A model generated the notes under the pieces. It searched no databases, was not told the DNA's origin, and saw nothing but the letters and a program-made list of their open reading frames with translations. A stretch of DNA of 33,542 bases from an uncultured Candidatus Saccharibacteria bacterium (GTDB taxonomy: Bacteria; Patescibacteriota; Saccharimonadia; Saccharimonadales; UBA4665). Made by a program: the position numbers and the translations under genes. Below are positions 4,448-24,999 of the stretch, in pieces (the first letter of the stretch is position 1; every line of letters begins with the position of its first letter). The stretch covers positions 1 to 33,542 of the forward strand of contig CAYTRU010000001.1 of the NCBI GenBank assembly GCA_964440265.1, given 5' to 3'.

Positions 4448-4570
4448 GTGAATATATAATGATTAAAAGTCAGGAGAGGATTCAGTAAGTTTTCAGAATT
4501 GGTTCAAGAATTTTGTTTCAGTCCTACAGAACAAGCTGGGCCTCAAATTATCATTTGCTATTATGAGCTT

Positions 4571-10152: not shown

Positions 10153-10768
10153 TACTCCAGAGGAAGTGGCAGCGTTATTTGACGACACGGCAACACTTGA
10201 GAGCACAGGGCTTGTTGTGATGCCGCATATCGCAGCGGTGACTGACCGCTACTCAATCGGCCACATACGACTTGGCCCTTTCGGCACCTACACCTACCTA
10301 GGCAGGGAACATATCATCGATCATGATAACAACAGCGTATACGCTGGAGCTGATCTAGCCGTTATGCCCAGCGATGAAGCAGCTGCCTTGGAGCACGCCG
10401 CTCAAACGCTCGAAGTCCCGCCAAAAATTATCTACCTGGCCCAGCAAGCGCTCCAGCATTTTGAGGCCTTAGCGGTGTACGATGGTCGGGTTAGCGTAGA
10501 TATACTCTGTGGCAGATCCGACAATGGCCAACTGCTCAGCGCCGTCGTCGATATCACCCCACGGGTAGGCAACAATACACCACCAGAAGTAGAGGCTATC
10601 AAGGCTCTATGTGAACAAGGTACTGGCCAGCATGTTGCATATGCTTCTGGCCAGCTCTACTACATTTCCAAGGAGACACCTGCGATCTCCAAAGCAGCTC
10701 GCTATATTGACACCGAATCGCTAGTCTCAACAGCAGTCGTAACTGATGTAATAAGAGTAGGTCGCTAG
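10106..10768 (+). CDS. Hypothetical protein with an ATP-grasp-like C-terminal flavour, possibly the C-terminal part of a frameshifted gene
   Basis: The frame opens at 10064, with ATGs at 10067 and 10106. The segment VSVDILCGRSDNGQLLSAVVDITPRVGNNTP loosely resembles the vD...g...vlEiNPR.g segment of ATP-grasp enzymes. Confidence 0.5.
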   Translation: MKDPRASDGRGQSIADTPEEVAALFDDTATLESTGLVVMPHIAAVTDRYSIGHIRLGPFGTYTYLGREHIIDHDNNSVYAGADLAVMPSDEAAALEHAAQTLEVPPKIIYLAQQALQHFEALAVYDGRVSVDILCGRSDNGQLLSAVVDITPRVGNNTPPEVEAIKALCEQGTGQHVAYASGQLYYISKETPAISKAARYIDTESLVSTAVVTDVIRVGR

Positions 10769-11580
10769 TAGGTAGCAGGGGAGTGGGTGGGCACAATCGG
10801 CAGATTGGGTAAGGGCTCGTTGAAGGCTTCCAGTTCTAGCCCACCTTCATATCCCCGATACGTCGTGAAACCACAGTTGAATGATTGAGTAGCTGCTAGC
10901 AATCTTGTGACCTCGCGAGGATCTAGATTTTGGCAATTTGCCCGTTGGGCTATCGTGGTGTTATGATGGCCAACGACTAAGAGCTCCAGCCCTACATACT
11001 CACCGATAATATCTCGATGTATGGAACGTAATCTTTCCCGAACATCGGGCGTGCTTTCGCCTCCCGGATACCTGTACCAATAAGCTGTCAGGCGTCTGCG
11101 CTCAGCTGCTTCTTCGGGATACAAAATTTCATACATGCGCCAATCGCAATACTTCTCAGCTCGTCCGCGCTCCTGTTCGCGTAGTCGTTCATCTTCGATA
11201 ACCGTCACTGCCTCCAGGGCTGGCCAGCTGGCTTTTAGCCAGCCCAATGTCTCGCGCGTTCGCCTATAGGGCGGGAGCAAGATAGCATCAGGGGTAGCAA
11301 TTTTTTTTCGCAGTTCCGGGCCAGCCGCTTCGGCTTGCCGTGGCCCAAACTTGGACAGCGGCACAGCGGGATCGCCGACCGTCATGACAAACTTATGTTT
11401 CACATCCTCATCTGTGGTTAAGGATCTCGCTAAAGCCAAAACCGTCTCAGGGTCTTCGCTACGTGCCTTGTAAGCTCGCATAAACCTTTGATAGTCCGGA
11501 TCAGTGGCCATACGCCGTCTTTTCGCGTTATAGTCGGACTCTGCATGCCTAATTGAGCTTAGTCTATTTGGGTGACCCAT
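10765..11580 (-). CDS. Histidine phosphatase superfamily protein (branch 1, PGM-like)
   Basis: It has IRHAESDYN (the RHG motif), PYRRTRET, PGGES and VVGHH. Confidence 0.75.
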   Translation of the reverse strand: MGHPNRLSSIRHAESDYNAKRRRMATDPDYQRFMRAYKARSEDPETVLALARSLTTDEDVKHKFVMTVGDPAVPLSKFGPRQAEAAGPELRKKIATPDAILLPPYRRTRETLGWLKASWPALEAVTVIEDERLREQERGRAEKYCDWRMYEILYPEEAAERRRLTAYWYRYPGGESTPDVRERLRSIHRDIIGEYVGLELLVVGHHNTTIAQRANCQNLDPREVTRLLAATQSFNCGFTTYRGYEGGLELEAFNEPLPNLPIVPTHSPATY

Positions 11581-15067: not shown

Positions 15068-16012
15068 ATGAATATCGGCCTCAGCTTTGTTGGTGTCTCT
15101 ATGCTTAGCGTGTTTATAGCCCTACCGTTAGGCTGGGTGATCGGTACGGTCGGTCGGCAGTTGCGCATTAAGAGAGCGGCCTGGTACTGGCGACGTCACA
15201 CTATTATTTATGCCGAATACGAGCCACCAGATAACCTCCGGCCTGGTGAGATCGCGTTTTTGTACGATCGATCCTTTGGGGAAGCAGAGCTGCTGGCAAC
15301 ACTCTTTGATTTAGAGCTCAGAAAAAAAGTTATCTTGTCGAACTTGCCGAGTAAAAACGATGCGGTCGACTTTCGCATCCGAGTAGTCAGTAAGGTAGTC
15401 GCAGACGATCTACGGGATTTCGAGCAGGAAACTCTAGCCACCTTAAAAGGTTACGGCCAAACAGCTACCTGGAGTCAGCTCAAGCTAGATACCGCCATCT
15501 GGGACTCCAATATCGAAACACATCTGGAGTCCGAGTTGCAGCAAAAAGACTACTTTCGGCAAGGCAGCACGAGCTTTTGGTCGACCATCGGCTTTGTAGC
15601 TTTTGGGATGATCATGGCTGGACTGACTGTCGTATTACCGACTGCCACAAGTGAGCATTGGCTACATAAGCAGCCCGTTAGTCCAGGCGATACCTATGCA
15701 GGACTGAATCATGATATCGCCACCTTTGAAGTGACCCTGCTATGGTCAATTGCCGCAGTAGCCTATGGCCTAGCGTTTTATTTTGCCGTTTCGGCCTACC
15801 GTCGAGCTATGGACTTGGAAAAGGGAACACCGCATTTACGCACTGTCTGGCCTCACATCGAAGGTTTTCGTCAGTATATACGAGTAGTCGATCAGGAACG
15901 TATTCAGTTTGAAAACCAGGAGCTTACCGTACACGCCCGCCAACAAGCCTTACCCTACGCCGTAGCCCTAAATCTTTCTACTAAATGGCAAGCGCGCTTT
16001 TCTGGGAATTAA
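15068..16012 (+). CDS. DUF2207 C-terminal-like membrane protein
   Basis: YEPPDNLRPGEIAFLYDRSFGEAELLATLFDLELRKKVIL matches the y.pP..l.PaE...L......d..atl.dLa.rg.l pattern, and several TM helices are present. TACAAT (15055-15060) lies 7 nt before the ATG. Confidence 0.6.
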   Translation: MNIGLSFVGVSMLSVFIALPLGWVIGTVGRQLRIKRAAWYWRRHTIIYAEYEPPDNLRPGEIAFLYDRSFGEAELLATLFDLELRKKVILSNLPSKNDAVDFRIRVVSKVVADDLRDFEQETLATLKGYGQTATWSQLKLDTAIWDSNIETHLESELQQKDYFRQGSTSFWSTIGFVAFGMIMAGLTVVLPTATSEHWLHKQPVSPGDTYAGLNHDIATFEVTLLWSIAAVAYGLAFYFAVSAYRRAMDLEKGTPHLRTVWPHIEGFRQYIRVVDQERIQFENQELTVHARQQALPYAVALNLSTKWQARFSGN

Positions 16013-16563
16013 ATAGGTGTCTTTTTGAGATGGAGTAAGTAGCCTACATAGCTGGAGGCAAGGTGAATAATAAACCAAGCAATCACTACCAAGCCGTATA
16101 TTTTCAGCGGCAGCCTACTAACGAGCATAGCTAATAAGCAACCCCCGATAATATAGTCAAGCTGGTCAAACGGAAACCAGCTGGCACCTGGCGCTACGGC
16201 TCGCTGACGCTTAAAAAAGCTCTCTATAGCGTCGCCAATAAGTGCTCCGGCTCCGAGTAAAACTCCCAGCAAAAATGACACATCTGCATAGCCAGCCTGC
16301 TGCAAATACATGCTGAAACCTCCTAGATGGTGGGACAGTTTTTGCTGCAGCAGAGCTACAAAAGCCGCAAAAATGATGCCGCACACCAGACCACGCCACG
16401 TTTTGCTAGAGCCCAACAATCTTTTACCGCGATAGTACTTCCCCCCATCTAGCGGTGCATTCCAGTGCCGTAAGAGCGGTAGATGGGCCACTAGAACCGG
16501 TGCCATATTGGCAGCCCCAGCTGGCAGAAAGAACCATAGCGCATACAAAAAATCATTCACCAT
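16009..16563 (-). CDS. carS: CDP-archaeol synthase (CarS, PF01864/DUF46) family CTP-transferase homologue
   Basis: The 184-aa polytopic protein has FFLPAGAANMAPVL, GKRLLGSSKTWRG, GDAIESFFKRQ and FDQLDY, and ends YLLHLKKTPI. These are the CarS family blocks as I recall them. Its start overlaps the PHP gene stop by 11 nt. Confidence 0.75.
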   Translation of the reverse strand: MVNDFLYALWFFLPAGAANMAPVLVAHLPLLRHWNAPLDGGKYYRGKRLLGSSKTWRGLVCGIIFAAFVALLQQKLSHHLGGFSMYLQQAGYADVSFLLGVLLGAGALIGDAIESFFKRQRAVAPGASWFPFDQLDYIIGGCLLAMLVSRLPLKIYGLVVIAWFIIHLASSYVGYLLHLKKTPI

Positions 16564-17206
16564 ATTGAAACCTCTTCTTTAAGCGATGCAGCGTCGGGTA
16601 TAGGGCACCAAAACCACCTACTCGCCGGGAAACATGCCGAGTATTGGTCAGTAAATCGACTAGGTTGTCTCTGGTGGGCAAACTCTCTATAAGCGAATAG
16701 GTCCGACCCCACCCAACCTTGCCATGGGCGTCACTGCTGCTCGCACTGGCTACCGGGTGAGCCTCAGCCCACGCTTTGGCTGCTGTCGATTTGTTCTGAA
16801 AATATGCCCGGCCATTATAGACCTCTATGATATCCACATCGGCGGCGATGCGGCGCAAAGTCTGCAGGCTGACACCCCGCCGCACCGTTTCGAACGGATG
16901 GGGGATGTACACGAGCCCGTTTTGAGCTCGAACCTGCCGAATAGTTTCCTCGGGGCTCAGCTGAGATAAGATAGTCGCCTTTAGAAATAAACCAATTATC
17001 TCGCCCTCAGTGGTTGTTATTTCCTCGCCAATAATAATTTTGTCACCCAACTGCTCATGCAGGGCAGTCGCAAAAGTGATGCGATCATGATCGGTCACTG
17101 CGATAACATCCAGCTCACCAGAACTCAGCATAGACTGATAATCTTTGGCTGTCAGACCACCATCTGACGAAGCAGTAGAGTGCGTATGTAAATCAAGCTT
17201 ATACAT
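16553..17206 (-). CDS. PHP-domain metal-dependent phosphoesterase
   Basis: It has LDLHTHSTASSDG and IAVTDHD, a further His/Asp in YIPHPFE, and SSSDAHG near the C-terminus. It starts 2 nt after the upstream gene stop. Confidence 0.8.
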   Translation of the reverse strand: MYKLDLHTHSTASSDGGLTAKDYQSMLSSGELDVIAVTDHDRITFATALHEQLGDKIIIGEEITTTEGEIIGLFLKATILSQLSPEETIRQVRAQNGLVYIPHPFETVRRGVSLQTLRRIAADVDIIEVYNGRAYFQNKSTAAKAWAEAHPVASASSSDAHGKVGWGRTYSLIESLPTRDNLVDLLTNTRHVSRRVGGFGALYPTLHRLKKRFQYGE

Positions 17207-17208
17207 AG

Positions 17209-17832
17209 CTATAACTGCCTGATAATGAGGTTTAGCCTTTCAAACACCATATAGCTCGCCAGCACTGCTATCAGCACAGTGACTACCAAGATTTGACTGC
17301 TTAGTAGCCCGATCACTATCAGCAACATCCGAACGTCAAATGGTACTACGCCCTCATGGTAGTAATGATTTATCTCATGATGACTGAGATGCTTGCGTGT
17401 CAGGGCTAGGGCAACCTCACCCTTTGCCTTAATAAAATTAGCCGTGAGCGAAGCGCCACAAGCCACGACCGCCACGCTAGTCCAGGCAGGACGACTACTG
17501 ACAGATAAAAAGTACGCAATACCGGTATACAGCAGTACCTCTTTGATACGATCAGTCGAGGCATCTAGAAACATACCGGCTTCGCTAGCCCGATTCTGTA
17601 AACGAGCTAACTCACCATCAAGTGTGTCAAACAACCCAAAAACAATCAGCAGCACACCCGCCAGCGGCAACTTACCAGCAGCAATCAAGAGGGCGATCGG
17701 TAGGTGCATGACTACGCCGACTACAGTAACTGTGGTGGGATGTAAGGAGCCGTGGGTCACTCGATTCAGCCAGTTAGCCACCCGTTTCATGATGTTCCGG
17801 ATGAATTGCCGCACCCATTCCACAATATGCAT
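17209..17832 (-). CDS. CDP-alcohol phosphatidyltransferase
   Basis: A perfect D-x2-D-G-x2-A-R-x8-G-x3-D-x3-D motif, DTLDGELARLQNRASEAGMFLDASTD, lies at 17551-17628. The protein is polytopic. Confidence 0.88.
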   Translation of the reverse strand: MHIVEWVRQFIRNIMKRVANWLNRVTHGSLHPTTVTVVGVVMHLPIALLIAAGKLPLAGVLLIVFGLFDTLDGELARLQNRASEAGMFLDASTDRIKEVLLYTGIAYFLSVSSRPAWTSVAVVACGASLTANFIKAKGEVALALTRKHLSHHEINHYYHEGVVPFDVRMLLIVIGLLSSQILVVTVLIAVLASYMVFERLNLIIRQL

Positions 17833-17890
17833 GTCTCTACTGTACTTGGGATCATTATAAAAATGAAAGAAAATAGTATATGTTTAAGGG

Positions 17891-19582
17891 ATGGGACTGC
17901 ATCGAACAGGGAAGCAAGCTGACTGGCAAAAAGTGCGGCGAGAGGAACAGACAGCCTGGCAACGCTTGGCTGAGCGCACACACGGCATCATTACACCTGG
18001 TAACATCATTAGTCTAACCGGTTTGCTTGGTGTGTTTTACGGAGCCGGGCTACTTCTGTATGAGCACTATACCGCCGGTTTAATCGCCATTACCGCGGGG
18101 CGGTTAGCTGATGTGTTCGATGGCCTGATAGCCGAAAAGACGGGTACCAAAAGCCCGCTAGGGGAAGTGGTAGATGCTACGATGGACAAGCTGGCTATTT
18201 TGGTACTAATACCTATCGTGATAATTGAGCATCTGCTACCGTTTACGGTATTCGGGATCATTGTCTTACAAAATGTCGTTAACGTGATGATCGCAGCCAT
18301 TGCCAAAGCCAGACGTCTTGAACTGCGTCCCACTATCGAAGGCAAAATCGCCACAGCGGCCGCGTGGGCTACTGTGGTTAGCTTTAGTGCCCTAACGGCA
18401 GCCCGCAAAGCACCACACCTCATCGTCTTGCAGGATATATTTTGGTTTGCGGCGTACCTATCGATCATACTTTTCTTGGTGTACGGACTGCGGGCTTCGC
18501 GAAATTATGCCCGCCTAGTTTTTGCTGTTAGTACGAGTGATTATATTAAGATGCTAGTAGGTAGATACCCCCCTCGCCCAAATCTACTGCACAGGTTCCA
18601 GCAAGTGATAATCATCGTGAATCCTCAGAGCAGTAACGTCCAGCGCGTCGAGAAGCGTCGCTACGAACTAAGCACGTTATTTCCCCTCACACCCATTAAA
18701 CTTATAGAAACTACTACCCGACCGGCTCAACTGACAGCTAGACTCAAACGAGCCCTCATTAATCAATCAGGTCCTACCTTACTATGTATCGGCGGCGGTG
18801 ATGGTACGGTACATCTGGTAGTCAACAGTTTGATGCAACTCCAGACAGAGATTGATCTGGCACAGGCACCAGTGTTACCACTGTGGGGCGGCAACGCGAA
18901 CGATCTCGCTACCATGTTGAATGGGCTTTCATCACGTACAAGCCTGAGAAGGTTGCTGACTAGCGCTAATATAATCGCCATTCATCCTCTTAAAATTACA
19001 AGCAGCTTGGATGGCCAAACGTCTACCCATCACTACGCCGCTTGCTATGCTAGCTTTGGTGTTTCCGCTTATGCCACTGCCGAACTCGAAAAGCCAGTAT
19101 ATAAAAAGCGATTACAGAGCAATTCGGCTCTGGGAACTTTCATCAAAGAATTTAAACAAGCTTGCCGGGCAATTTTAGATGCACCAGGATTTGATGCCGA
19201 ACAAAATGGTAAACGAATTAAAATTTTCGAACAGGTGTTTTCTAATGGCTCAAGGGTAGCTAAGATGGACCGCTTACCAGTCAAGTTGCACGAAAAACGC
19301 TTTTATCGGGCGGTTAACTCGGAGACGCAGCCCACTCCTTTATTTTATATTCGGCAATTCCTACTTTTACGCGGCAAGAAGCTCGGCGAAGTCACTGACC
19401 AAAACTTTCGGTTTACCACCAAGGAACGTGCTTGGGCGCAGTTTGACGGCGAGGCGAGGGTGCTACCCAAAAATACTACTGTTAGCATCGGTCTAGCGGA
19501 AGCACCTTTCTATGCTGTTAGCACCAAACTCAAACCGCGTGAAAACCACCAGGCCTCACCGGCAACAGATGCTGGTAATTAG
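17891..19582 (+). CDS. Fusion protein: N-terminal CDP-alcohol phosphatidyltransferase plus C-terminal DAG-kinase-type lipid kinase (DAGK_cat/YegS-like)
   Basis: The N-terminal motif is DVFDGLIAEKTGTKSPLGEVVDATMD (18110-18187; AR is replaced by AE) with TM helices. The C-terminal half has IIIVNPQS, GGDGT (18794-18808) and GGNANDLA. Confidence 0.85.
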   Translation: MGLHRTGKQADWQKVRREEQTAWQRLAERTHGIITPGNIISLTGLLGVFYGAGLLLYEHYTAGLIAITAGRLADVFDGLIAEKTGTKSPLGEVVDATMDKLAILVLIPIVIIEHLLPFTVFGIIVLQNVVNVMIAAIAKARRLELRPTIEGKIATAAAWATVVSFSALTAARKAPHLIVLQDIFWFAAYLSIILFLVYGLRASRNYARLVFAVSTSDYIKMLVGRYPPRPNLLHRFQQVIIIVNPQSSNVQRVEKRRYELSTLFPLTPIKLIETTTRPAQLTARLKRALINQSGPTLLCIGGGDGTVHLVVNSLMQLQTEIDLAQAPVLPLWGGNANDLATMLNGLSSRTSLRRLLTSANIIAIHPLKITSSLDGQTSTHHYAACYASFGVSAYATAELEKPVYKKRLQSNSALGTFIKEFKQACRAILDAPGFDAEQNGKRIKIFEQVFSNGSRVAKMDRLPVKLHEKRFYRAVNSETQPTPLFYIRQFLLLRGKKLGEVTDQNFRFTTKERAWAQFDGEARVLPKNTTVSIGLAEAPFYAVSTKLKPRENHQASPATDAGN

Positions 19583-19642: not shown

Positions 19643-22390
19643 ATGGCTAAAACAGCGACAAAATCCTCAAAGAACACTAAAAACAAACTAGGACGCTTGC
19701 AACGTCTGAGTCTCTTATCATTTAATCGGCCACATCAGGCTGCTCTGATCTTATTGGTCTTGGTACTCTTTGGTGCTGTTTGCTACGGCACGCTACTAAA
19801 ACGCGAGGGCTTCCCTAGTATCAATACGCCTCTTGCCATCGCCAGCGGCACCTACCTTGTCAATGATCCCGCCCGTGTCGACGCCGACATTGCAAAACCA
19901 TTAAGTGACTTCTTGCTGAAACAAGCTGATATTACGACAGTCCAGAGCCAAAGTTTTGCTAATTTTTATAATATCACGGTGTCGTACAAGGAGGGTGTCA
20001 GCGCTTCGGCTAGAAGTAGCTCACTGTCCAAGCAAATAACCGACCGTCATCTGCTACCCAAGCAGTCAACTCTCAAGCTGGCTCCAGTCGAATTCGGTTT
20101 TACGAGTCGCGGTGACGATTTGGTCGTATCTTTTTATAGTACTGGCCATACGCAAGATAGTCACAGCTTAGTAGCTAAGGCAAAAGCCGCTGCAGCTTTT
20201 ATCCAAAAGAAGCATTTACCCCTGGTACAGACCGCTTCGATAATTGATCCATATGAAGCCGCCGTCAACCCCTTAAGCGGGCAGCGGGAAACCACCCAAA
20301 AATCATTCGATAGGTTCGGGCAGCGGGAAGCTGCTGCTAGCAAGTTTTATACCTCAGTCGTGATAGGAGTAAAGGCTACGACTGGCGCTGACAATCTTGA
20401 TTTGGATAAACAGGTTCGAGGGGCAGTTGCGAGCCTCAATCAGCAAGCTCAGTTCTCTGGTTATCAGGCGGTCGTCAGTGCCAGCTATGCACCGCAGATC
20501 AACGACCAAATTAACACGCTACAAACCTCGCTTTTGGAGGGTTTGCTGGCTGTATTGATAGTCGGTTCGCTAGTGATTGCTATCCGAGCCTCATTGATTA
20601 CCGTCCTATCCATGGTAACCGTACTGGCTACCGTCAATGGGCTGTTATATGTGTTGGGCTATAGCCTCAATACCATCACTTTATTTGCGCTCATCCTCGG
20701 CCTGTCGCTCATAGTCGATGATACGATCATTATGGTCGAGGCGCTCGACGCACAGCGACGCCGACAAAAGACGGCTGATCTGGCGGTCAGTGAAGCTACG
20801 CGGCGGGTCAGCCGGGCTATGATCGCCGCCACTTCGACGTCGGTGCTGAGCTTTGCGCCATTATTATTTGTCGGCGGCATACTCGGCAATTTTATTCGTG
20901 CCATACCGATAACTATCATCGCCGCACTCTTGACCAGTCTATTCGTAGCGCTAGTATTTATTCCGTTCTTCGGACGCTTCCTATTACTTGGTAAAAAACA
21001 AATGGGCGCTGACAACGTGCACGAGCTAAGTGCGGGCATCGAACGGCGCATCATTAAGTTCGTCGCCAGCCCCATGCTCTGGGCCAAAGGCTCAACCAAA
21101 AAGCTCATGAGCGTCGGGTTGATTGCTGTAGCAATCGGTTTTGGTTTCATCGGTGCAGGCGGTTACTTGTTCCAAAAAGTCAGCTTCAATATTTTCCCGC
21201 CGGCCAAAGATGGCGATCAGCTCAGTATCACCGTAGTCTTTCATCCAAATACTTCGATCGCCCAAGCCCAGGTGATTGCCGGTCAAGTCGATCACCTCGT
21301 CAGCCAGACAACTGGGAGCAATTTTGTCAGAGCCTCGTACTTTGGGCGAGCTGACATTCAGCAAGCTATGCTGACGACCGATATCATCCCCTACCAACAG
21401 CGCGCTATCACCGCCCCAGAGCTTGTCAAGCAATTGAACGCCAAATTTGACACTTTTTCAGCCGCCTCCGTCGAAGCCGCTCCATTGGCTGCCGGACCAC
21501 CGGCTGCTGACTTTACAGTACAGATAGAATCAGGTAAAAACCGGCCTGGAGCCTTGCGTCTGGCTGATGTGGTCGCCACGTATCTACAGAAAGAGGCCGT
21601 ACTCCGGCGAGCCGACGGCAGTATTGCCAAGGTAAAAAACGTTCGTATCAGCAATGCCAGTATTTACGTGCGCAGTGATAACAGGCAGTACGTAGCGGTC
21701 ACTGCCAAGTTCGTCGATACTGATACCAGCACGCTCGTTAGCCTCGCAAAGACCGCCGTGCAAAAACACTTCACCGACAACAAAGTAGCTACTTATGGTC
21801 TCCCAAAAAACACTATTGATTTTGATGCTGGTCAAGAAGACCAGAACCAGGACAGCTTTAAAACGCTGGCTTTAGCGTTCCCGGCACTACTATTTGTGAT
21901 TTACTTGGTCCTGGCGTTTCAATTCCGCAGCCTATTACAGCCGCTACTCATCTTTATGGCACTGCCGTTTAGCTTGTTTGGCATTACCCTCGGCCTGTAC
22001 CTGACAAACAATCCCTTCAGCTTCTTCGCTATGCTTGGTTTCTTCGCGCTGATCGGTCTTAGCATTAAAAACACCATCCTGCTGACTGATTATGCCAATC
22101 AATCCCGGAAAGCCGGCATGCACCCAGTGGATGCTGCTCATGAAGCTTTAAGCGAGCGCTTCCGTCCCTTAATTGCTACCAGTCTAACGGCAGTTTTTTC
22201 GCTGATCCCGTTAGCTTTGGCGAGCCCGTTCTGGGAAGGCTTAGCCGTAGTCTTGATTTTCGGCCTGTTGTCCAGCACCTTCCTGGTTATCACGGTGTTC
22301 CCGTACTACTACCTCGGCAGCGAATTTTTGCGCCAACATTTTAACCGTCGCACAGGTATATTACTTAAGGTTAGGCAAAGAAACTCTTAA
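19643..22390 (+). CDS. RND superfamily (AcrB-like) transporter permease
   Basis: 915 aa, with GAGGA as RBS. The N-terminus FNRPHQAALILLVLVLFG...GFPSINTP resembles AcrB TM1. Two TM bundles are separated by large soluble loops. The TM4-like LGLSLIVDDTIIMVEAL carries the DD pair (20717-20722). Confidence 0.85.
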   Translation: MAKTATKSSKNTKNKLGRLQRLSLLSFNRPHQAALILLVLVLFGAVCYGTLLKREGFPSINTPLAIASGTYLVNDPARVDADIAKPLSDFLLKQADITTVQSQSFANFYNITVSYKEGVSASARSSSLSKQITDRHLLPKQSTLKLAPVEFGFTSRGDDLVVSFYSTGHTQDSHSLVAKAKAAAAFIQKKHLPLVQTASIIDPYEAAVNPLSGQRETTQKSFDRFGQREAAASKFYTSVVIGVKATTGADNLDLDKQVRGAVASLNQQAQFSGYQAVVSASYAPQINDQINTLQTSLLEGLLAVLIVGSLVIAIRASLITVLSMVTVLATVNGLLYVLGYSLNTITLFALILGLSLIVDDTIIMVEALDAQRRRQKTADLAVSEATRRVSRAMIAATSTSVLSFAPLLFVGGILGNFIRAIPITIIAALLTSLFVALVFIPFFGRFLLLGKKQMGADNVHELSAGIERRIIKFVASPMLWAKGSTKKLMSVGLIAVAIGFGFIGAGGYLFQKVSFNIFPPAKDGDQLSITVVFHPNTSIAQAQVIAGQVDHLVSQTTGSNFVRASYFGRADIQQAMLTTDIIPYQQRAITAPELVKQLNAKFDTFSAASVEAAPLAAGPPAADFTVQIESGKNRPGALRLADVVATYLQKEAVLRRADGSIAKVKNVRISNASIYVRSDNRQYVAVTAKFVDTDTSTLVSLAKTAVQKHFTDNKVATYGLPKNTIDFDAGQEDQNQDSFKTLALAFPALLFVIYLVLAFQFRSLLQPLLIFMALPFSLFGITLGLYLTNNPFSFFAMLGFFALIGLSIKNTILLTDYANQSRKAGMHPVDAAHEALSERFRPLIATSLTAVFSLIPLALASPFWEGLAVVLIFGLLSSTFLVITVFPYYYLGSEFLRQHFNRRTGILLKVRQRNS

Positions 22391-22407: not shown

Positions 22408-23031
22408 ATGAAGCATGGCCCTGCGGGAGGTATTACACCACTTCAGCCCGGCGAGGCGACTGAATATTTAAGCTTTCTCAGTAATGCCGTGCAAGAGATC
22501 AGCACCTCGCTGCACTATACGACGACGCTTCAGAATGTAGCTAGCACTATGGTACCCAGAATCGCCGATTGGTGCGCCGTAGACATTGCTCAAGACGATG
22601 GCACACTGAAACGACTAGCGACAGCTCATATTGATCCCAAAAAAATAAAAAAAGCATTAGAGATAGGAAAGAAGTATCCCCGCGACCCGAATGCTGGTAG
22701 CGGCTCTCCGCATGTCCTCAAAACGGGCGTACCAGAAATGTCCAATGGCATTACCGACAACCTCTTAGTAGACGCCGCGATCAATAAGGAACATCTTGCC
22801 ATGATGCGCGACTTACAATTTCATTCTTTGATGATCGTACCCATAAAATCGCGGCGTAGAACCCTCGGCACCATGACCTTCGTTTGGGCAGAATCAGCGA
22901 AGTCATATAGCCTCGCCGATTTGGCCTTCGCTGAGATATTGGCCAGTGTAGCTGGTAGTGCGATTGATAATTCACGCTTGTACCAAGCAGCGAAGCGAGC
23001 AGCAGCTAAAAAATTAGTCGCGAGTCACTAA
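22408..23031 (+). CDS. Stand-alone GAF domain protein
   Basis: It has LHYTTTLQNVASTMVPRIADWCAVDI...LATAHIDP...SLMIVPIKSRRRTLGTMTF...AEILASVAGSAIDNSRLY, the pattern of the GAF module found N-terminal to SpoIIE-type phosphatases. TATAAT (22395-22400) lies 7 nt before the ATG. Confidence 0.75.
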   Translation: MKHGPAGGITPLQPGEATEYLSFLSNAVQEISTSLHYTTTLQNVASTMVPRIADWCAVDIAQDDGTLKRLATAHIDPKKIKKALEIGKKYPRDPNAGSGSPHVLKTGVPEMSNGITDNLLVDAAINKEHLAMMRDLQFHSLMIVPIKSRRRTLGTMTFVWAESAKSYSLADLAFAEILASVAGSAIDNSRLYQAAKRAAAKKLVASH

Positions 23032-23702
23032 GCATGCGGTGGCGTAACCGCGACGGCGCGCTCTTCTTTGTGATAGCTCCGACCCTCAGGCGTTACTGAG
23101 AACAGCAAGATACGGTCAAAAGGCATTTCAACCGCCGCTATGTCGGCATCGCTGATAGCCTCCAGATGCTTGATAAGTGTGCGTAGCGTATTGCCATGCG
23201 ACACCACGAGGACTGTCTTTCCAGCCTGCAACTGGGGCAGAATACGGGACTCATAAAAAGGCACTGTTCGGGCGTGCACCATCTGCAGAGTTTCGCCACC
23301 CGGTATGGGATGATCCCAAGCTCGGCGGATACCGTCAAACTTGTCCTTACCCAGCCGGTCGAGTACTTGCCACTTATCTAGGCCAGTATACTCACCGTAG
23401 TCACGCTCGTTAAGCGGCGCGTGACGTTCGTGGGGCAAATCAGGCTGCTGCTGTGCTGTCGACAAGAGACCTTGCAACGTTTCCAAAGTCCGGACATGTT
23501 CAGAGTAATAAGCCAAATCGATAGTTAGGTCCTGCAGAGCCTCACCGATCAAGCGGGCATCCTGGCGGCCTTTCTCGGTGAGGTGAACATCCGCCTGGCC
23601 GGTCCATTTGCCCAATACGTTCCATTCGGACTCGGCATGTCGGACTAGAATGAGTTTGCCGCTGCCCGGTACAGATTTTTTATTACGCGAATTTGTAGCC
23701 AT
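23028..23702 (-). CDS. gpmA: 2,3-bisphosphoglycerate-dependent phosphoglycerate mutase
   Basis: It has LVRHAESEWN, LNERDYGEYTG, RRAWDHPIPGGE and VSHGNTLR, and is adjacent to eno. Confidence 0.85.
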   Translation of the reverse strand: MATNSRNKKSVPGSGKLILVRHAESEWNVLGKWTGQADVHLTEKGRQDARLIGEALQDLTIDLAYYSEHVRTLETLQGLLSTAQQQPDLPHERHAPLNERDYGEYTGLDKWQVLDRLGKDKFDGIRRAWDHPIPGGETLQMVHARTVPFYESRILPQLQAGKTVLVVSHGNTLRTLIKHLEAISDADIAAVEMPFDRILLFSVTPEGRSYHKEERAVAVTPPHA

Positions 23703-23706
23703 TGCT

Positions 23707-23716
23707 TGGTATTATA
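23707..23716. promoter_or_regulatory. Shared, symmetric -10 region serving divergent gpmA and eno
   Basis: The intergenic region is 22 bp. The plus strand has TGgTATTAT (23707-23715), 9 nt before the eno ATG. The minus strand has TATAAT (23716-23711), 8 nt before the gpmA ATG. Confidence 0.45.
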
Positions 23717-23724
23717 GAACTAGT

Positions 23725-24999
23725 ATGCTGATTCAGTCTATTATCGGGCGGCAGATTTTTGATTCGCGGGGCTACCCGACGGTGGAGTGTGACGTCACGC
23801 TAGCCGATGGCAGCCAGGGACGAGCTGCTGTTCCCTCGGGAGCATCCACTGGTAGTGGCGAAGCACTGGAATTACGGGATGGCGGTCAAGCGTTTGGCGG
23901 TAAAGGTGTCACAAAAGCCGTGGCAAACCTTCACCAGCTAATTGCACCAGCACTGCAAGGCCAAGACGCTAGCAATCAAGCAGCCATCGATCAAACACTG
24001 CAGGACTTGGATGGCACTGCCGACAAAAGCCGCCTTGGCGCCAATGCCACCCTAGCGGTATCACTGGCTGTCGCTCATGCCATGGCGGCTTGCAAGAAAC
24101 AACCACTGTATATCCACATCGGCGCACTAGCCGGTAATGATACTTTCACACTACCGCTGCCCATGCTAAATATCTTAAATGGTGGCCAACATGCTGCTGG
24201 CTCCACCGATATTCAAGAGTTCATGATACTGCCAATTGGGGCCACAGATTTGGCAACTGCTCTGCGTATGGCCAGCGAAGTTTATCATACGCTCGCCAGC
24301 GTTCTACAAGCAAAAGGCTACGCTACGACCGTCGGTGACGAAGGAGGCTATGCGCCTAGCGTCACCGGCGGGTCAAATGAGGCTCTGGAGCTCATCATGA
24401 CCGCCATTACCCAAGCAGGCTACCGTCCCGGCAAAGATATCGCCTTGGCCTTAGACGTCGCTGCCAGTGAGCTAGTAGACGGCTCAGATTATAATTTTGC
24501 CCGCGAAGGTAAGATCTACACGGTCGCGCAGTTGATTGAACAATACGCCGCTCTAGCCAAAGATTTCCCGCTACTATCAATCGAAGATGGGCTAGCCGAG
24601 AAAGATTGGTCCGGCTGGCAACAACTTACTCTAGAACTCGGTGGCACACTGCAACTGGTAGGTGATGATCTACTGGTTACCAATACCACCTTACTCCAAA
24701 AAGCCATCCGTCTCAAAGCTGCCAATGCTATACTCATCAAACCCAATCAAATCGGCACACTCAGCGAGACTATAGCTGCTGTCCGTATGGCGCAGGCTGC
24801 TGGTTGGCGCACCATTATATCGCATCGCTCGGGCGAAACCGAGGATACTACCATTGCCCATCTGGCAGTTGGCCTAAACGCCGGACAGATCAAAACCGGC
24901 TCCTTTTCGCGCTCTGAACGCCTGGCCAAATACAATGAACTACTGCGTATTGCTGAAACGTTAACCAACCCACGATTGGCGCCATTCCATGCAGCATAA
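23725..24999 (+). CDS. eno: Enolase
   Basis: The N-terminus is MLIQSIIGRQIFDSRGYPTVECDV...VPSGASTGSGEALELRD, and SHRSGETED is present. The start is set at ATG 23725; the ORF-track extension to 23608 would run through gpmA. Confidence 0.95.
   Translation: MLIQSIIGRQIFDSRGYPTVECDVTLADGSQGRAAVPSGASTGSGEALELRDGGQAFGGKGVTKAVANLHQLIAPALQGQDASNQAAIDQTLQDLDGTADKSRLGANATLAVSLAVAHAMAACKKQPLYIHIGALAGNDTFTLPLPMLNILNGGQHAAGSTDIQEFMILPIGATDLATALRMASEVYHTLASVLQAKGYATTVGDEGGYAPSVTGGSNEALELIMTAITQAGYRPGKDIALALDVAASELVDGSDYNFAREGKIYTVAQLIEQYAALAKDFPLLSIEDGLAEKDWSGWQQLTLELGGTLQLVGDDLLVTNTTLLQKAIRLKAANAILIKPNQIGTLSETIAAVRMAQAAGWRTIISHRSGETEDTTIAHLAVGLNAGQIKTGSFSRSERLAKYNELLRIAETLTNPRLAPFHAA

What the first reader, a model, noticed from the sequence alone, without database searches (positions are those of the whole stretch)
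16009..19582. Archaeal-type CarS homologue at the core of a compact bacterial lipid-activation and head-group module
Seen in sequence:
- Four genes share one 58-bp divergent promoter region (17833-17890).
- On the minus strand are three tightly coupled genes. The first is a CDP-alcohol phosphatidyltransferase (17209-17832) with a perfect DG..AR...G...D...D motif. Two nt downstream is a PHP phosphoesterase (16553-17206). An 11-nt overlap leads into a CarS/PF01864-type polytopic CTP-transferase (16009-16563).
- On the plus strand is a second CDP-alcohol phosphatidyltransferase fused to a DAG-kinase-type lipid kinase.

Established knowledge:
- CarS makes CDP-archaeol in Archaea, whereas bacteria normally use the unrelated CdsA.
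- CDP-alcohol phosphatidyltransferases install phospho-head groups from CDP-activated donors.
- DAGK-type kinases make lipid phosphates.

Inference: together these supply every chemical step of a self-contained route.
1. The kinase converts a lipid alcohol (such as diacylglycerol) to a lipid phosphate.
2. The CarS-like enzyme converts that to a CDP-lipid.
3. The transferases convert that to a phospho-head-group lipid.
4. The PHP enzyme dephosphorylates the product.

In a reduced genome that cannot build acyl chains, this would be a way to salvage and re-head-group acquired lipids. I know of no experimentally characterised bacterial pathway organised like this.
Basis: partly seen in the sequence, partly recalled or inferred. 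Interest (0 to 1): 0.85.

Follow-up and report, generated by a model that had tools for sequence, protein, structure and literature searches.

The report
CarS-type phospholipid operon of Saccharibacteria
A gene cluster conserved across the ultra-small Saccharibacteria joins an archaeal-style CDP-lipid synthase to an inositol-lipid-synthase-like enzyme, a phosphatase and a transferase-kinase fusion, most likely to put new head groups on lipids taken from the host; the genes are real and widespread, but the chemistry is still inferred.

Summary
16009-16563(-) is a CarS-type enzyme by profile HMM (PF01864, 104 bits) and by predicted fold (pLDDT 91; TM 0.72/0.82 to Aeropyrum CarS 5GUF; about 0.4 to CdsA). 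The organism is a Saccharimonadales (CPR) bacterium.

The block is not a one-off. At least 579 species genomes carry the CarS-like gene. In 52 of the 80 best loci it follows the same PT-PHP pair, and in 74 of 80 a PT, PHP or lipid-kinase gene lies within 4 kb. The exact four-gene divergent layout recurs in three distant relatives.

The upstream transferase resembles phosphatidylinositol-phosphate (PIP) synthase, including the phosphate-binding Arg/Ser/Tyr/Lys residues. This makes the PHP enzyme a candidate for the still-unidentified PIP phosphatase. The fused transferase is atypical: its motif Arg is Glu/Asp.

Substrates are untested, CdsA absence could not be checked, and lipid scavenging through CDP-DAG to PI was already proposed for a Saccharibacterium in 2018. 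I rate it a new variant of a known pathway, of moderate interest.

The parts
16009..16563 (-). CarS-type integral-membrane CTP:lipid-phosphate cytidylyltransferase (184 aa, five long helices)
   Evidence: PF01864 104.3 bits and NF003114 131.5 bits, the latter below its equivalog cutoff of 148. ApCarS 5GUF E=6e-10. AF2 pLDDT 91.3; Foldseek 5GUF TM 0.72/0.82, CdsA 0.39. K54-T-W-R-G58, G110-D111, S115-F-F-K118-R119 and D133-Q-x-D136 are invariant in the 20-sequence alignment A1.
16553..17206 (-). Minimal PHP-family metal-dependent phosphoesterase (217 aa) with a conserved basic C-terminal tail; candidate phospholipid-phosphate (PIP/PGP) phosphatase
   Evidence: PF02811 26.1 bits; NF038032 67.5 bits. 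AF2 pLDDT 91.1; Foldseek hits to PHP esterases 3E38, 2ANU, 7UG9. H7, H9, D15, H40, E62, H103, D159 and H161 are invariant in 24 homologues. Tail net charge is +3 to +8. It lies between PT1 and CarS in 52 of 80 species loci.
17209..17832 (-). PT1: CDP-alcohol phosphatidyltransferase most similar to phosphatidylinositol-phosphate / archaetidylinositol-phosphate synthases
   Evidence: PF01066 51.3 bits. NF040950 80.4 and NF045883 76.3 bits, against pgsA 21 bits. The best PDB sequences are mycobacterial PIP synthases, E about 1e-10 to 1e-11. The full motif is present. R95, S132 (N in the window), Y133 (F in the window), K135, K137, E139, R168 and R199 are conserved in 60 orthologues and match the MtPgsA1 ino-P pocket residues.
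17833..17890 (.). 58-bp AT-rich divergent intergenic spacer between the PT1-PHP-CarS string and the fusion gene
   Evidence: Sequence read. No consensus promoter was found. The same divergent junction occurs in L004, L005 and L006.
17891..18535 (+). PT2: divergent CDP-alcohol-phosphatidyltransferase domain (aa 1-215 of the fusion) with the motif Arg replaced by Glu
   Evidence: PF01066 46.8 bits. NCBIfam hits are weak and ambiguous: AIPS 38.6, PgsA 38.5, ClsA 34.5. No PDB sequence hit is better than E=0.09. Family motif GR-x2-D-x2-DG-x2-A-[ED]-x-T-x-TKSPLGE-x2-DA-x2-DK.
18596..19582 (+). DAGK_cat-type lipid kinase domain (aa about 236-563 of the fusion)
   Evidence: PF00781 39.1 bits. Weak hits to YegS/Rv2252/BmrU lipid-kinase models. 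PDB: sphingosine kinase 1 E=3e-5, YegS E=0.02. GGGDGT (303-306), LPLWGGNAND and QFDGE (517-521) are invariant in 16 homologues. The domain is stand-alone (about 320 aa) in many relatives.

Best explanation
This is a conserved Saccharimonadia (CPR) phospholipid head-group module that works as a CDP-lipid (Kennedy-type) pathway built with unusual parts.

Step 1 (inferred): the DAGK_cat kinase domain, tethered to the membrane by its fusion to PT2, phosphorylates a lipid alcohol to a lipid phosphate. The most likely reaction is host-derived diacylglycerol to phosphatidate.

Step 2 (fold and motifs shown, substrate inferred): the five-helix CarS-type enzyme condenses the lipid phosphate with CTP to give CDP-diacylglycerol. 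It would take the place usually held by CdsA.

Step 3 (family resemblance and pocket residues shown, substrate inferred): PT1, a PIP-synthase-like transferase, moves the phosphatidyl group onto a phosphorylated polyol, most likely myo-inositol phosphate, giving phosphatidylinositol phosphate.

Step 4 (inferred from position and chemistry): the PHP phosphoesterase, translationally coupled between PT1 and CarS, removes the head-group phosphate to give phosphatidylinositol.

PT2, an atypical transferase with Glu/Asp in place of the motif Arg, uses or makes CDP-lipid for a second, unknown head group or for head-group exchange.

The module would let a bacterium that depends on host lipids re-head-group them.
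For: Gene linkage:
- PT1-PHP-CarS is co-directional and overlapping or abutting in the window, in L001-L003 and in 52 of 80 species-representative loci.
- 74 of 80 loci have at least one PT, PHP or kinase gene within 4 kb of CarS.
- The four-gene divergent layout is conserved in L004, L005 and L006, where the fusion is 51%, 45% and 36% identical and the flanks are unrelated.

Fusions:
- PT2-kinase occurs in many genomes.
- A reversed kinase-PT fusion exists (P0211).
- One PT-CarS fusion exists (P0415).

CarS:
- HMM, sequence and fold all match ApCarS.
- The motif residues shared with ApCarS and E. coli CdsA (KTW-G, GD-x2-ES-x-FKR, D-x2-D) are invariant.

PT1:
- It scores 76-80 bits on PIP/AIP synthase models against 21 bits on PgsA, and its best solved relatives are mycobacterial PIP synthases.
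- Its orthologues conserve the residues that bind the inositol-phosphate phosphate in MtPgsA1 (R94, S132, Y133, K135, R137, R155, R195; PMC6506517).
- PIP synthases yield a phosphorylated lipid that needs a phosphatase, and that phosphatase is unidentified in bacteria and archaea.

PHP:
- It has a confident PHP fold, all metal ligands are invariant, and it has a basic C-terminal tail.

Context:
- Saccharibacteria are predicted to be unable to make fatty acids and to scavenge lipids, with annotated routes PA -> CDP-DAG -> PGP/CL/PI (PMC6031116).
- Another cultured CPR bacterium lacks de novo phospholipid synthesis and has its host's fatty-acid profile.
- A PIG-L (GlcNAc-PI deacetylase family) gene abuts CarS in 15 loci.
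Against: - No substrate was tested.
- Characterised CarS enzymes prefer unsaturated archaetidic acid (DGGGP) over phosphatidate, and AfCarS does not complement an E. coli cdsA mutant (PMC9385802 and PMC4244643).
- The window protein falls below the NCBIfam CarS equivalog cutoff (131.5 vs 148), and PT1 falls far below the PIP/AIP synthase cutoffs (76-80 vs 170-180). Both are therefore divergent subfamilies whose specificity may differ.
- Absence of CdsA could not be checked. About 1 Mb of sampled CPR DNA contained no CdsA, but each locus covers only about 1% of its genome.
- No inositol-phosphate synthase was seen in the window or among the recurrent neighbours.
- The PHP's nearest solved relatives are nucleotide or RNA phosphoesterases or are uncharacterised, and a basic tail fits nucleic-acid binding as well as membrane binding.
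- Seven of the 80 loci have PT1-CarS without PHP, and five have PHP-CarS without PT1.
- The kinase's closest solved relative is sphingosine kinase at only E=3e-5.
- PT2 lacks the canonical Arg.
Confidence: 0.5

Rival explanations
1. Same pathway logic but a different head group. PT1 is a phosphatidylglycerophosphate (or other polyol-phosphate) synthase and the PHP enzyme is a PGP phosphatase, so the string makes phosphatidylglycerol rather than phosphatidylinositol. PT2 would then make cardiolipin or another lipid.
For: - PT1 is below the cutoffs of the PIP/AIP synthase equivalogs.
- No inositol-phosphate synthase was seen nearby.
- PG and cardiolipin are the usual anionic lipids of Gram-positive-type membranes.
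- Starr 2018 annotated PGP synthase and cardiolipin synthase in a Saccharibacterium.
- Arg/Lys pockets would also bind glycerol-3-phosphate.
Against: - PT1 scores 76-80 bits on PIP/AIP synthase models against 21 bits on PgsA, and only PIP synthases, AF2299 and DIPP synthase appear among solved relatives.
- The S-Y-x-K-x-[KR]-x-E stretch and R95, R168 and R199 match the MtPgsA1 ino-P pocket position by position.
- PT2, not PT1, has the (weak) PgsA/ClsA-like scores.
Confidence: 0.15
2. The PHP enzyme is not a lipid phosphatase. It hydrolyses a soluble by-product or nucleotide (PPi from the CarS reaction, CMP from the transferase reaction, or pAp/short RNA as in RNase AM/TrpH). It either pulls the cytidylyl transfer forward or is only a neighbour kept by translational coupling.
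For: - The nearest solved relatives are the RNase AM PHP domain, nucleoside-bisphosphate phosphatase-like proteins and uncharacterised PHP esterases, and NCBIfam gives weak hits to those families.
- PHP-CarS pairs without PT1 exist in five of 80 loci, and PT1-CarS pairs without PHP in seven.
- A basic tail also suits nucleic-acid binding.
- From my own knowledge, PHP domains of DNA polymerase III have reported pyrophosphatase activity.
Against: - The PHP gene sits between PT1 and CarS in 52 of 80 species.
- It is the best-conserved protein of the string, at 55-66% identity.
- PIP/PGP-type transferases require a dedicated phosphatase, and none of the known types (PgpA/B/C) was seen in the block.
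- At 217 aa it lacks the extra insertion domain of TrpH/RNase AM (about 290 aa).
Confidence: 0.2
3. The CarS-like enzyme keeps an archaeal-type specificity and activates an isoprenoid lipid phosphate (an archaetidic-acid-like ether lipid or a polyprenyl phosphate). The module would then build an isoprenoid-based phospholipid or carrier lipid, not a diacyl phospholipid.
For: - Characterised CarS enzymes are selective for geranylgeranyl-type substrates.
- The fold matches ApCarS much better than CdsA.
- DAGK_cat kinases are not restricted to diacylglycerol.
Against: - No GGGPS, DGGGPS/UbiA or G1P dehydrogenase gene was found in the window or among recurrent neighbours in 80 loci.
- The CPR clade is large and distant from archaeal CarS: ApCarS scores 42.8 bits, against more than 110 bits for 150 CPR clusters.
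- Its catalytic-loop motifs (KTWRG, GDAIESFFKR) are closer to E. coli CdsA (KTWQG, GDLTESMFKR) than to ApCarS (KTIEG, GDMAGSFVKRR).
- The partners are bacterial-type head-group enzymes.
- Published data point to CPR using host fatty-acid lipids.
Confidence: 0.08
4. The string makes a soluble inositol-phosphate solute (a di-myo-inositol-phosphate-like pathway: cytidylyltransferase, DIPP synthase, DIPP phosphatase) rather than a membrane lipid.
For: - PT1 also hits the IPCT/DIPP synthase model (53 bits) and the 4MND and AF2299 structures.
- The DIP pathway likewise ends with a phosphatase.
Against: - The cytidylyltransferase here is a five-helix integral-membrane CarS-type enzyme, not the soluble nucleotidyltransferase domain of IPCT.
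- PT1 scores higher on lipid PIP/AIP synthases.
- The block is linked to a lipid-kinase domain.
Confidence: 0.03

Closest known systems
Archaeal CDP-archaeol synthase CarS (Aeropyrum pernix 5GUF; Archaeoglobus fulgidus AF1740)
   Same: Same Pfam family (PF01864), same length and five-helix architecture. The predicted fold has TM 0.72/0.82 and rmsd 2.7 A to 5GUF. The K-T-x-x-G, G-D, S-F-x-K-R and D-Q-x-D motifs are conserved.
   Different: Only about 27% identical, and below the NCBIfam equivalog cutoff. It belongs to a large CPR-specific clade and sits in a bacterial head-group operon with no archaeal ether-lipid genes nearby. Several motif details are CdsA-like. The lipid substrate is probably diacyl rather than digeranylgeranyl, but this is untested.
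Bacterial CDP-diacylglycerol synthase CdsA (PF01148; T. maritima 4Q2E/4Q2G)
   Same: Same superfamily and the same presumed reaction (lipid phosphate + CTP -> CDP-lipid + PPi). There is a weak local PF01148 hit over the catalytic loop (28 bits), with shared KTW-G and GD-x2-ES-x-FKR motifs.
   Different: 184 aa with five helices, against about 270-285 aa with nine. Foldseek TM is only about 0.4 and the NCBIfam CdsA score is 17 bits. It is not a CdsA family member.
Actinobacterial phosphatidylinositol pathway (DAG kinase Rv2252 -> CdsA -> PIP synthase PgsA1 -> unidentified PIP phosphatase)
   Same: Same order of chemical steps as proposed here. PT1 is most similar to PgsA1-type PIP synthases and keeps their ino-P pocket residues. 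The known hosts of Saccharibacteria are Actinobacteria. The role of Rv2252 is from my own knowledge.
   Different: The cytidylyltransferase is CarS-type rather than CdsA. The genes are clustered and partly fused here. A PHP phosphoesterase occupies the place of the missing phosphatase. PT1 is far below the PIP synthase equivalog cutoff.
Archaetidylinositol-phosphate synthase pathway of Archaea (CarS -> AIP synthase -> unidentified AIP phosphatase)
   Same: A CarS-type activator followed by an AIP/PIP-synthase-like transferase. NF040950 is the best NCBIfam hit of PT1 (80 bits). The phosphatase is likewise unknown.
   Different: The organism is bacterial, no ether-lipid core genes were seen, and a DAGK_cat kinase is present. 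This combination is not described in Archaea.
Predicted lipid scavenging in 'Candidatus Teamsevenus rhizospherense' (Starr et al. 2018, PMC6031116)
   Same: Same lineage and the same overall idea: no fatty-acid synthesis, imported lipid, PA -> CDP-DAG -> PGP/CL/PI.
   Different: That paper worked from pathway annotation only. It did not note the CarS-type nature of the cytidylyltransferase, the operon, the PHP phosphatase or the transferase-kinase fusion.
Soluble lipid kinases DgkB / YegS / sphingosine kinase (PF00781)
   Same: DAGK_cat domain with the GGDGT nucleotide loop and a C-terminal DGE motif.
   Different: Very divergent (25-39 bits), fused to a polytopic transferase domain, and of unknown substrate.

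Membership tests
CarS / PF01864 (CDP-archaeol synthase family) | Full-length match to the family profile above the curated threshold | tested here: met
   PF01864 104.3 bits against a cutoff of 22, covering residues 2-182 of 184.
CarS / PF01864 (CDP-archaeol synthase family) | Equivalog-level match to archaeal CDP-2,3-bis-(O-geranylgeranyl)-sn-glycerol synthase (NF003114) | tested here: not met
   131.5 bits, below the cutoff of 148. It is a family member but outside the set trusted to share the exact archaeal function.
CarS / PF01864 (CDP-archaeol synthase family) | Five-transmembrane-helix fold of ApCarS | tested here: met
   AF2 pLDDT 91.3 and pTM 0.86, with five long helices. Foldseek top hit 5GUF: TMq 0.72, TMt 0.82, rmsd 2.7 A.
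CarS / PF01864 (CDP-archaeol synthase family) | Conserved cytoplasmic-loop motifs shared with ApCarS and CdsA (K-T-x-x-G; G-D; S-F-x-K-R; D-x-x-D) | tested here: met
   They align with ApCarS and EcCdsA, and are invariant in the 20-sequence alignment A1. I could not retrieve the list of catalytic residues from the ApCarS structure paper.
CarS / PF01864 (CDP-archaeol synthase family) | CTP-dependent activation of DGGGP (unsaturated archaetidic acid) | not testable with these tools
   Needs an enzyme assay. Published CarS enzymes prefer DGGGP over PA.
CarS / PF01864 (CDP-archaeol synthase family) | Genomic co-occurrence with archaeal ether-lipid core genes (G1PDH, GGGPS, DGGGPS) | tested here: inconclusive
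   None was found in the 33.5-kb window or among recurrent neighbours of 80 loci. Whole genomes were not available.
CdsA / PF01148 | Full-length profile match and nine-helix architecture | tested here: not met
   Only a local 28-bit hit covers 62 of 264 profile positions. NF008635 scores 17 bits against a cutoff of 385. Foldseek TM is about 0.4 to 4Q2G/4Q2E.
Phosphatidylinositol-phosphate / archaetidylinositol-phosphate synthase (NF045883 / NF040950), for PT1 | Equivalog-level profile score | tested here: not met
   76.3 and 80.4 bits against cutoffs of 170 and 180. These are the best-scoring families but well below threshold.
Phosphatidylinositol-phosphate / archaetidylinositol-phosphate synthase (NF045883 / NF040950), for PT1 | CDP-alcohol phosphotransferase signature D-x2-DG-x2-AR-x8-G-x3-D-x3-D | tested here: met
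   D69, D72, G73, A76, R77, G86, D90 and D94 are present, and invariant or nearly so in 60 orthologues.
Phosphatidylinositol-phosphate / archaetidylinositol-phosphate synthase (NF045883 / NF040950), for PT1 | Inositol-phosphate pocket residues of MtPgsA1 (R94, S132, Y133, K135, R137, R155, R195) | tested here: met
   Conservation in 60 orthologues: R95 58, S132 58 (N in the window protein), Y133 56 (F in the window protein), K135 48, K137 50, R168 60, R199 60. The alignment around R155/R168 is not unambiguous.
Phosphatidylinositol-phosphate / archaetidylinositol-phosphate synthase (NF045883 / NF040950), for PT1 | CDP-DAG + inositol-1-phosphate -> PIP activity | not testable with these tools
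   Needs an enzyme assay.
PHP phosphoesterase (PF02811) | Profile match above the gathering score | tested here: not met
   26.1 bits against 26.4, a marginal miss. Many orthologues pass in precomputed annotations.
PHP phosphoesterase (PF02811) | PHP barrel fold with His/Asp/Glu metal ligands | tested here: met
   AF2 pLDDT 91.1. Foldseek hits 3E38, 7UG9 and 2ANU at E 1e-9 to 1e-11. H7, H9, D15, H40, E62, H103, D159 and H161 are invariant.
DAGK_cat lipid kinase (PF00781) | Profile match and GGDGT nucleotide-binding loop | tested here: met
   39.1 bits against a cutoff of 23.6. G303-D304-G305-T306 is invariant.
DAGK_cat lipid kinase (PF00781) | Diacylglycerol as the phosphate acceptor | not testable with these tools
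   Only weak similarity to SphK1, YegS and Rv2252-type models.
Canonical CDP-alcohol phosphatidyltransferase (PF01066), for PT2 | Profile match above threshold | tested here: met
   46.8 bits against a cutoff of 22.
Canonical CDP-alcohol phosphatidyltransferase (PF01066), for PT2 | Complete signature including the Arg of DG-x2-AR | tested here: not met
   The position is Glu82 in the window protein. It is E/D/S in the 15 N-terminal-PT fusions and E/D/H in the PT2 alignment of loci sequences (17 rows including the window protein). All Asp and Gly positions are kept.

The most novel reading that the evidence does not exclude
A whole bacterial radiation (Saccharimonadia and other CPR phyla) makes its CDP-activated phospholipid precursor with a CarS-fold enzyme instead of CdsA, so a 'lipid-divide' enzyme family works on bacterial diacyl lipids. 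The PHP protein wedged between it and a PIP-synthase-like transferase would be the first identified member of the long-missing phosphatidylinositol-phosphate phosphatase class. The Arg-less PT2-kinase fusion would be a new head-group-exchange enzyme for salvaged host lipids.
Probability: 0.3. Interest if true: 0.75.

Novelty: new variant of a known kind. Interest (0 to 1): 0.55.

Why it matters
CarS and CdsA are usually presented as the enzymes that keep archaeal and bacterial phospholipid synthesis apart at the CDP-activation step. A CarS-fold enzyme embedded in a bacterial head-group operon and conserved in hundreds of CPR species gives a direct way to test what determines lipid-tail specificity in this superfamily.

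The phosphatase that converts PIP (or AIP) to PI is still unidentified in mycobacteria and archaea. A small, highly conserved PHP enzyme translationally coupled to a PIP-synthase-like gene is a concrete, easily expressed candidate.

For CPR biology, the module indicates which steps of membrane biogenesis these host-dependent bacteria keep for themselves (activation and head-group choice) and which they outsource (acyl chains). It also points to an essential, lineage-specific target in cultivable Saccharibacteria.

The idea itself (salvage plus a CDP-DAG route) is not new. What is new is the parts list and its conservation.

Tried and rejected
- **Literature.** Searches for any paper linking CDP-archaeol synthase/CarS with Saccharibacteria, CPR or Patescibacteria found only reference-list co-occurrences. 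Searches for Saccharibacteria lipid papers found only Starr 2018 and a 2026 CPR preprint. The Southlakia genetics preprint does not mention lipids. The ApCarS structure paper could not be retrieved, so catalytic residues were judged from conservation and from motifs shared with CdsA.
- **Promoter and terminator scan.** Nothing in the 58-bp spacer, and the counts were not above shuffles.
- **tRNA and Rfam scans of the window.** Nothing found.
- **Composition.** The block (GC about 0.49-0.50) does not differ from the window, so there is no sign of recent transfer.
- **CdsA search.** A PROSITE-like regex and phmmer with E. coli CdsA against the window plus about 1.0 Mb of fetched CPR loci hit only the CarS-like ORFs. 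This is too little of each genome to conclude absence.
- **RND/MMPL transporter downstream of the fusion.** Not conserved next to the block. Only L037 has a homologue nearby, so it is not counted as a part.
- **DUF2207 neighbour.** Not conserved.
- **Fold search of the PHP model and PDB sequence searches for PT2 and the kinase.** No substrate-level information.
- **Di-myo-inositol-phosphate pathway.** Considered and rejected, because the activator is a membrane CarS-type enzyme.
- **CTP-dependent polyprenol-kinase role for the CarS-like protein.** Considered but not favoured. Those kinases belong to PF01148 proper, and a separate kinase is already linked to the block.

Full report
**Observation**

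- 16009-16563(-), 184 aa
- 16553-17206(-), 217 aa
- 17209-17832(-), 207 aa
- 17891-19582(+), 563 aa

The PT and PHP genes are separated by 2 nt. PHP and CarS overlap by 11 nt. The two transcription directions are separated by a 58-bp AT-rich spacer.

Pfam assigns:
- PF01864 CarS-like to the 184-aa protein (104.3 bits, cutoff 22, nearly full length);
- PF02811 PHP to the 217-aa protein (26.1 bits, just under the 26.4 cutoff);
- PF01066 to the 207-aa protein (51.3 bits);
- PF01066 plus PF00781 (DAGK_cat) to the 563-aa protein.

A consensus promoter scan found nothing in the spacer and was not above chance for the region. The spacer is therefore a shared intergenic region, not a demonstrated promoter. 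Base composition of the block equals that of the window.

**Organism and wider window**

The rest of the window encodes a sortase, an Rpf-like transglycosylase with LysM, NAD salvage, glycolysis/gluconeogenesis and purine-synthesis enzymes. There are no tRNA or Rfam hits. Homologues of the CarS-like protein that carry names come from Candidatus Saccharimonadales MAGs, where the gene is already auto-annotated 'CDP-archaeol synthase' or, in JGI data, sometimes 'CDP-diglyceride synthetase'.

**Is 16009-16563 really CarS-like?**

Yes, at three levels.
- Profile: PF01864, and the archaeal equivalog model NF003114 at 131.5 bits. That is a strong full-length match but below the trusted cutoff of 148.
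- Sequence: the only significant solved relative is Aeropyrum pernix CarS 5GUF (E=6e-10).
- Fold: an AlphaFold2 model built on 20 homologues has pLDDT 91.3 and five long helices. Foldseek against the PDB returns 5GUF as the only significant hit (TM 0.72/0.82, rmsd 2.7 A). CdsA structures reach only TM about 0.4.

The loop motifs K54-T-W-R-G58, G110-D111, S115-F-F-K118-R119 and D133-Q-x-D136 align with ApCarS and with the E. coli CdsA signature, and they are invariant in the 20-sequence alignment A1. In detail these motifs (KTWRG, GDAIESFFKR) look more like E. coli CdsA (KTWQG, GDLTESMFKR) than like ApCarS (KTIEG, GDMAGSFVKRR). This explains the weak local PF01148 hit.

**Distribution**

The best 80 are almost all Saccharibacteria, plus WS6/Dojkabacteria and Levyibacteriota.
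- An exhaustive HMMER search of 50%-identity cluster representatives found 1827 clusters at E<=1e-3 and 822 at E<=1e-10. The best 150 still score above 110 bits, and the named ones are Dojkabacteria and Patescibacteria.
- ApCarS scores only 42.8 bits.

The CPR proteins therefore form a large clade of their own inside the CarS family. This is not a recent one-off transfer.

**Conservation of the block**

I translated all ORFs of 86 fetched loci and searched them with the window proteins. Among the 80 species-representative loci:
- 52 have PT1 and PHP directly upstream of CarS in the same order and orientation as in the window;
- 7 have PT1-CarS without PHP;
- 5 have PHP-CarS without PT1;
- 17 have a PT2-type transferase within 4 kb, often convergent right after CarS;
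- 10 have the kinase within 4 kb;
- only 6 have none of these, and some loci are cut by contig ends.

The exact divergent four-gene layout is present in L004, L005 and L006. There the fusion protein is 51%, 45% and 36% identical to the window's, and the flanking genes are unrelated.

Gene fusions add independent links:
- The PT2-kinase fusion occurs in many genomes, while other genomes have the kinase alone.
- P0211 has the reverse order, kinase then a canonical-motif transferase.
- P0415 fuses a canonical transferase to a CarS-like domain, although it comes from a single 1.8-kb contig.

In a Levyibacteriota genome the CarS-like gene is flanked by a divergent PF01066 transferase and a convergent Exo_endo_phos family protein. 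Together this is strong evidence that the five domains work in one process.

**The transferase PT1**

- Its best NCBIfam models are archaetidylinositol-phosphate synthase (80.4 bits) and phosphatidylinositol-phosphate synthase (76.3 bits), far ahead of PgsA (21 bits) or PssA. All are well below the equivalog cutoffs.
- Its best solved relatives are the mycobacterial and Renibacterium PIP synthases, then AF2299 and DIPP synthase. All of these use inositol phosphate as acceptor.
- The structure paper on M. tuberculosis PgsA1 names R94, S132, K135, R152, R155 and R195 (plus Y133 and R137 by mutagenesis) as the inositol-phosphate pocket, with R155 and R195 strictly conserved (PMC6506517).
- In 60 PT1 orthologues the aligned positions are R95 (58/60), S132 (58/60; Asn in the window protein), Y133 (56/60; Phe in the window protein), K135 (48/60), K137 (50/60), E139 (57/60), R168 (60/60) and R199 (60/60). 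The full catalytic motif is invariant. The alignment around R168 is not unambiguous.

PT1 is best described as a divergent PIP-synthase-like enzyme whose acceptor carries a phosphate.

**The PHP protein**

PIP (and PGP) synthases release a phosphorylated lipid that must be dephosphorylated. The PIP/AIP phosphatase is explicitly 'yet unidentified' in mycobacteria and archaea. The PHP gene sits between PT1 and CarS, coupled to both.

- Its family is large (3291 database hits) and is the best conserved of the block, at 55-66% identity among the top 120. It is annotated only as 'PHP domain-containing protein' or 'TrpH'.
- The AF2 model (pLDDT 91.1) is a compact PHP barrel.
- All expected metal ligands are invariant.
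- The nearest structures are uncharacterised PHP esterases (3E38, 2ANU), the RNase AM PHP domain and PsfC. The fold does not give the substrate.
- The C-terminal 20 residues form a conserved, strongly basic helix (LYPKLNRLRKR; net charge +3 to +8). This would suit binding to an anionic membrane, but also to nucleic acid.

A lipid-phosphate phosphatase role is the most economical reading. A pyrophosphatase or nucleotide-phosphoesterase role cannot be excluded.

**The fusion protein**

The kinase domain keeps GGGDGT, LPLWGGNAND and QFDGE as invariant blocks. It is only distantly related to sphingosine kinase 1 (E=3e-5), YegS and the YegS/Rv2252/BmrU models. It is a lipid kinase of unknown specificity.

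The N-terminal transferase domain (PT2) passes PF01066 but is atypical. The Arg of DG-x2-AR is Glu82 in the window protein. It is E/D/S in the 15 N-terminal-PT fusions and E/D/H in the PT2 alignment of loci sequences (17 rows including the window protein). G70-R71 and T84-x-T86-K87-S-P-L-G-E form a family-specific signature. PT2 has no informative solved relative and only weak, ambiguous NCBIfam scores (AIP synthase, PgsA and ClsA, all 35-39 bits). Its reaction is unknown.

**Context from the literature**

- Starr et al. 2018 concluded that a soil Saccharibacterium cannot make fatty acids, probably imports phospholipid or phosphatidate, and has annotated genes for PA -> CDP-DAG -> PGP, cardiolipin or PI, and for PI mannosides (PMC6031116).
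- A 2026 preprint reports a cultured CPR bacterium without de novo phospholipid synthesis genes whose co-culture fatty-acid profile equals the host's.
- Reviews state that purified AfCarS prefers DGGGP to phosphatidate and does not complement an E. coli cdsA mutant. The M. thermautotrophicus activity cared about unsaturated isoprenoid chains but not about ether/ester linkage or glycerol stereochemistry. CdsA can substitute for CarS in engineered cells.
- I found no paper connecting CarS with CPR bacteria.

**Interpretation**

The best-supported mechanism is a CDP-lipid head-group pathway:
1. lipid alcohol -> lipid phosphate (kinase);
2. lipid phosphate -> CDP-lipid (CarS-type enzyme);
3. CDP-lipid -> phosphatidyl-polyol-phosphate, most likely PIP (PT1);
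4. PIP -> PI (PHP).

PT2 provides a second, unknown transfer.

Shown here:
- the family and fold assignments;
- intact active-site residues;
- the strong, repeated genomic linkage, including fusions.

Inferred:
- every substrate;
- the direction of PT2;
- the claim that the CarS-type enzyme replaces CdsA.

I could not test CdsA, Pls or Fab absence. Only the CarS-like ORFs matched E. coli CdsA in about 1.0 Mb of sampled CPR DNA, but that is about 1% of each genome. No inositol-phosphate synthase was seen in the window or among recurrent neighbours. The recurrent neighbours in about 25 loci are ArgRS, a DUF1361 membrane protein divergent from PT1, a PIG-L family deacetylase abutting CarS, and a PGI/PMI isomerase. 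The PIG-L family includes GlcNAc-PI and GlcNAc-inositol deacetylases, which is a weak further hint towards inositol chemistry.

**Verdict**

Its novelty is narrower than claimed, because the salvage/CDP-DAG idea and the 'CDP-archaeol synthase' label already exist.

New here:
- the recognition that a CarS-fold enzyme is the conserved partner of bacterial-type head-group enzymes across Saccharimonadia;
- the PHP enzyme as a candidate PIP/PGP phosphatase;
- the Arg-less transferase-kinase fusion.

I rate it a new variant of a known kind of pathway, interest 0.55.

Noticed in passing
window 18110-18190 (codon of E82 at 18134-18136); alignments A2 and the PT2 set from loci: The transferase domain of the fusion has Glu where all canonical CDP-alcohol phosphatidyltransferases have the motif Arg (DG-x2-AR). 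The position is E/D/S or H in every homologue examined. G70-R71 and T-x-TKSPLGE are family-specific invariants, so this is a distinct, uncharacterised subfamily.
   Followed up: partly
P0211 and P0415: Two alternative fusions exist. P0211 is kinase then a canonical-motif transferase, the reverse domain order. P0415 is a canonical transferase fused to a CarS-like domain (336 aa, from a single 1.8-kb Logan contig, so a frameshift or assembly artefact is not excluded).
   Followed up: partly
window 19643-22390 (+); L037 2-2008: An RND/MMPL-type permease (915 aa; ACR_tran, MMPL and SecDF hits) starts 60 nt after the fusion gene. A close homologue lies 2.7 kb upstream of PT1 in L037. It is absent beside the block in the other loci examined. 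It could be a lipid transporter, but the linkage is weak.
   Followed up: partly
L085 5403-7297 (Levyibacteriota, CP066685.1): In this other CPR phylum the CarS-like gene is flanked by a divergent PF01066 transferase and a convergent Exo_endo_phos family protein (the family includes inositol-phosphate phosphatases and phospholipase C/sphingomyelinases). This may be a non-orthologous counterpart of the PHP enzyme.
   Followed up: no
about 25 of loci L007-L086 (e.g. L044 7499-8230, L074 4010-4693): Recurrent neighbours of the PT1-PHP-CarS string are a PIG-L family deacetylase convergent right after CarS (15 loci, median gap 13 bp), a DUF1361 polytopic membrane protein divergent from PT1 (24 loci), a bacterial PGI/PMI isomerase (25 loci) and ArgRS (25 loci). 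These loci probably belong to one sub-clade, so the counts are not independent.
   Followed up: partly
window 16009-16563 versus E. coli CdsA (L087 678-1535): The catalytic-loop motifs of the CPR CarS-like proteins (KTWRG; GDAIESFFKR) are closer to E. coli CdsA (KTWQG; GDLTESMFKR) than to A. pernix CarS (KTIEG; GDMAGSFVKRR), although overall sequence and fold are CarS-type.
   Followed up: partly
window 16553-16620 (C-terminal 20 residues of the PHP protein): There is a conserved, strongly basic C-terminal helix (consensus LYPKLNRLRKR, net charge +3 to +8 in 24 homologues). It fits peripheral binding to an anionic membrane but equally fits nucleic-acid binding.
   Followed up: partly
L001 / L008 (OY969576.1): One relative with the PT1-PHP-CarS string sits on a 1.9-Mb single-chromosome MAG, about twice the usual size of Saccharibacteria genomes.
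   Followed up: no
window 23028-23702 (-) and 23608-24999 (+): The longest-ORF call for enolase (TTG at 23608) overlaps the divergent His_Phos_1 gene by 95 nt, and the Enolase_N domain starts only at residue 42. The true enolase start is probably further downstream.
   Followed up: no
window 10765-11580 (-), 23028-23702 (-), 4499-5170 (+), 3536-4114 (+): Two histidine-phosphatase (His_Phos_1) genes, a HAD hydrolase and an alpha/beta hydrolase lie elsewhere in the window. Any of them could be lipid- or sugar-phosphate phosphatases or lipases relevant to lipid salvage. None is linked to the block in other genomes examined.
   Followed up: no
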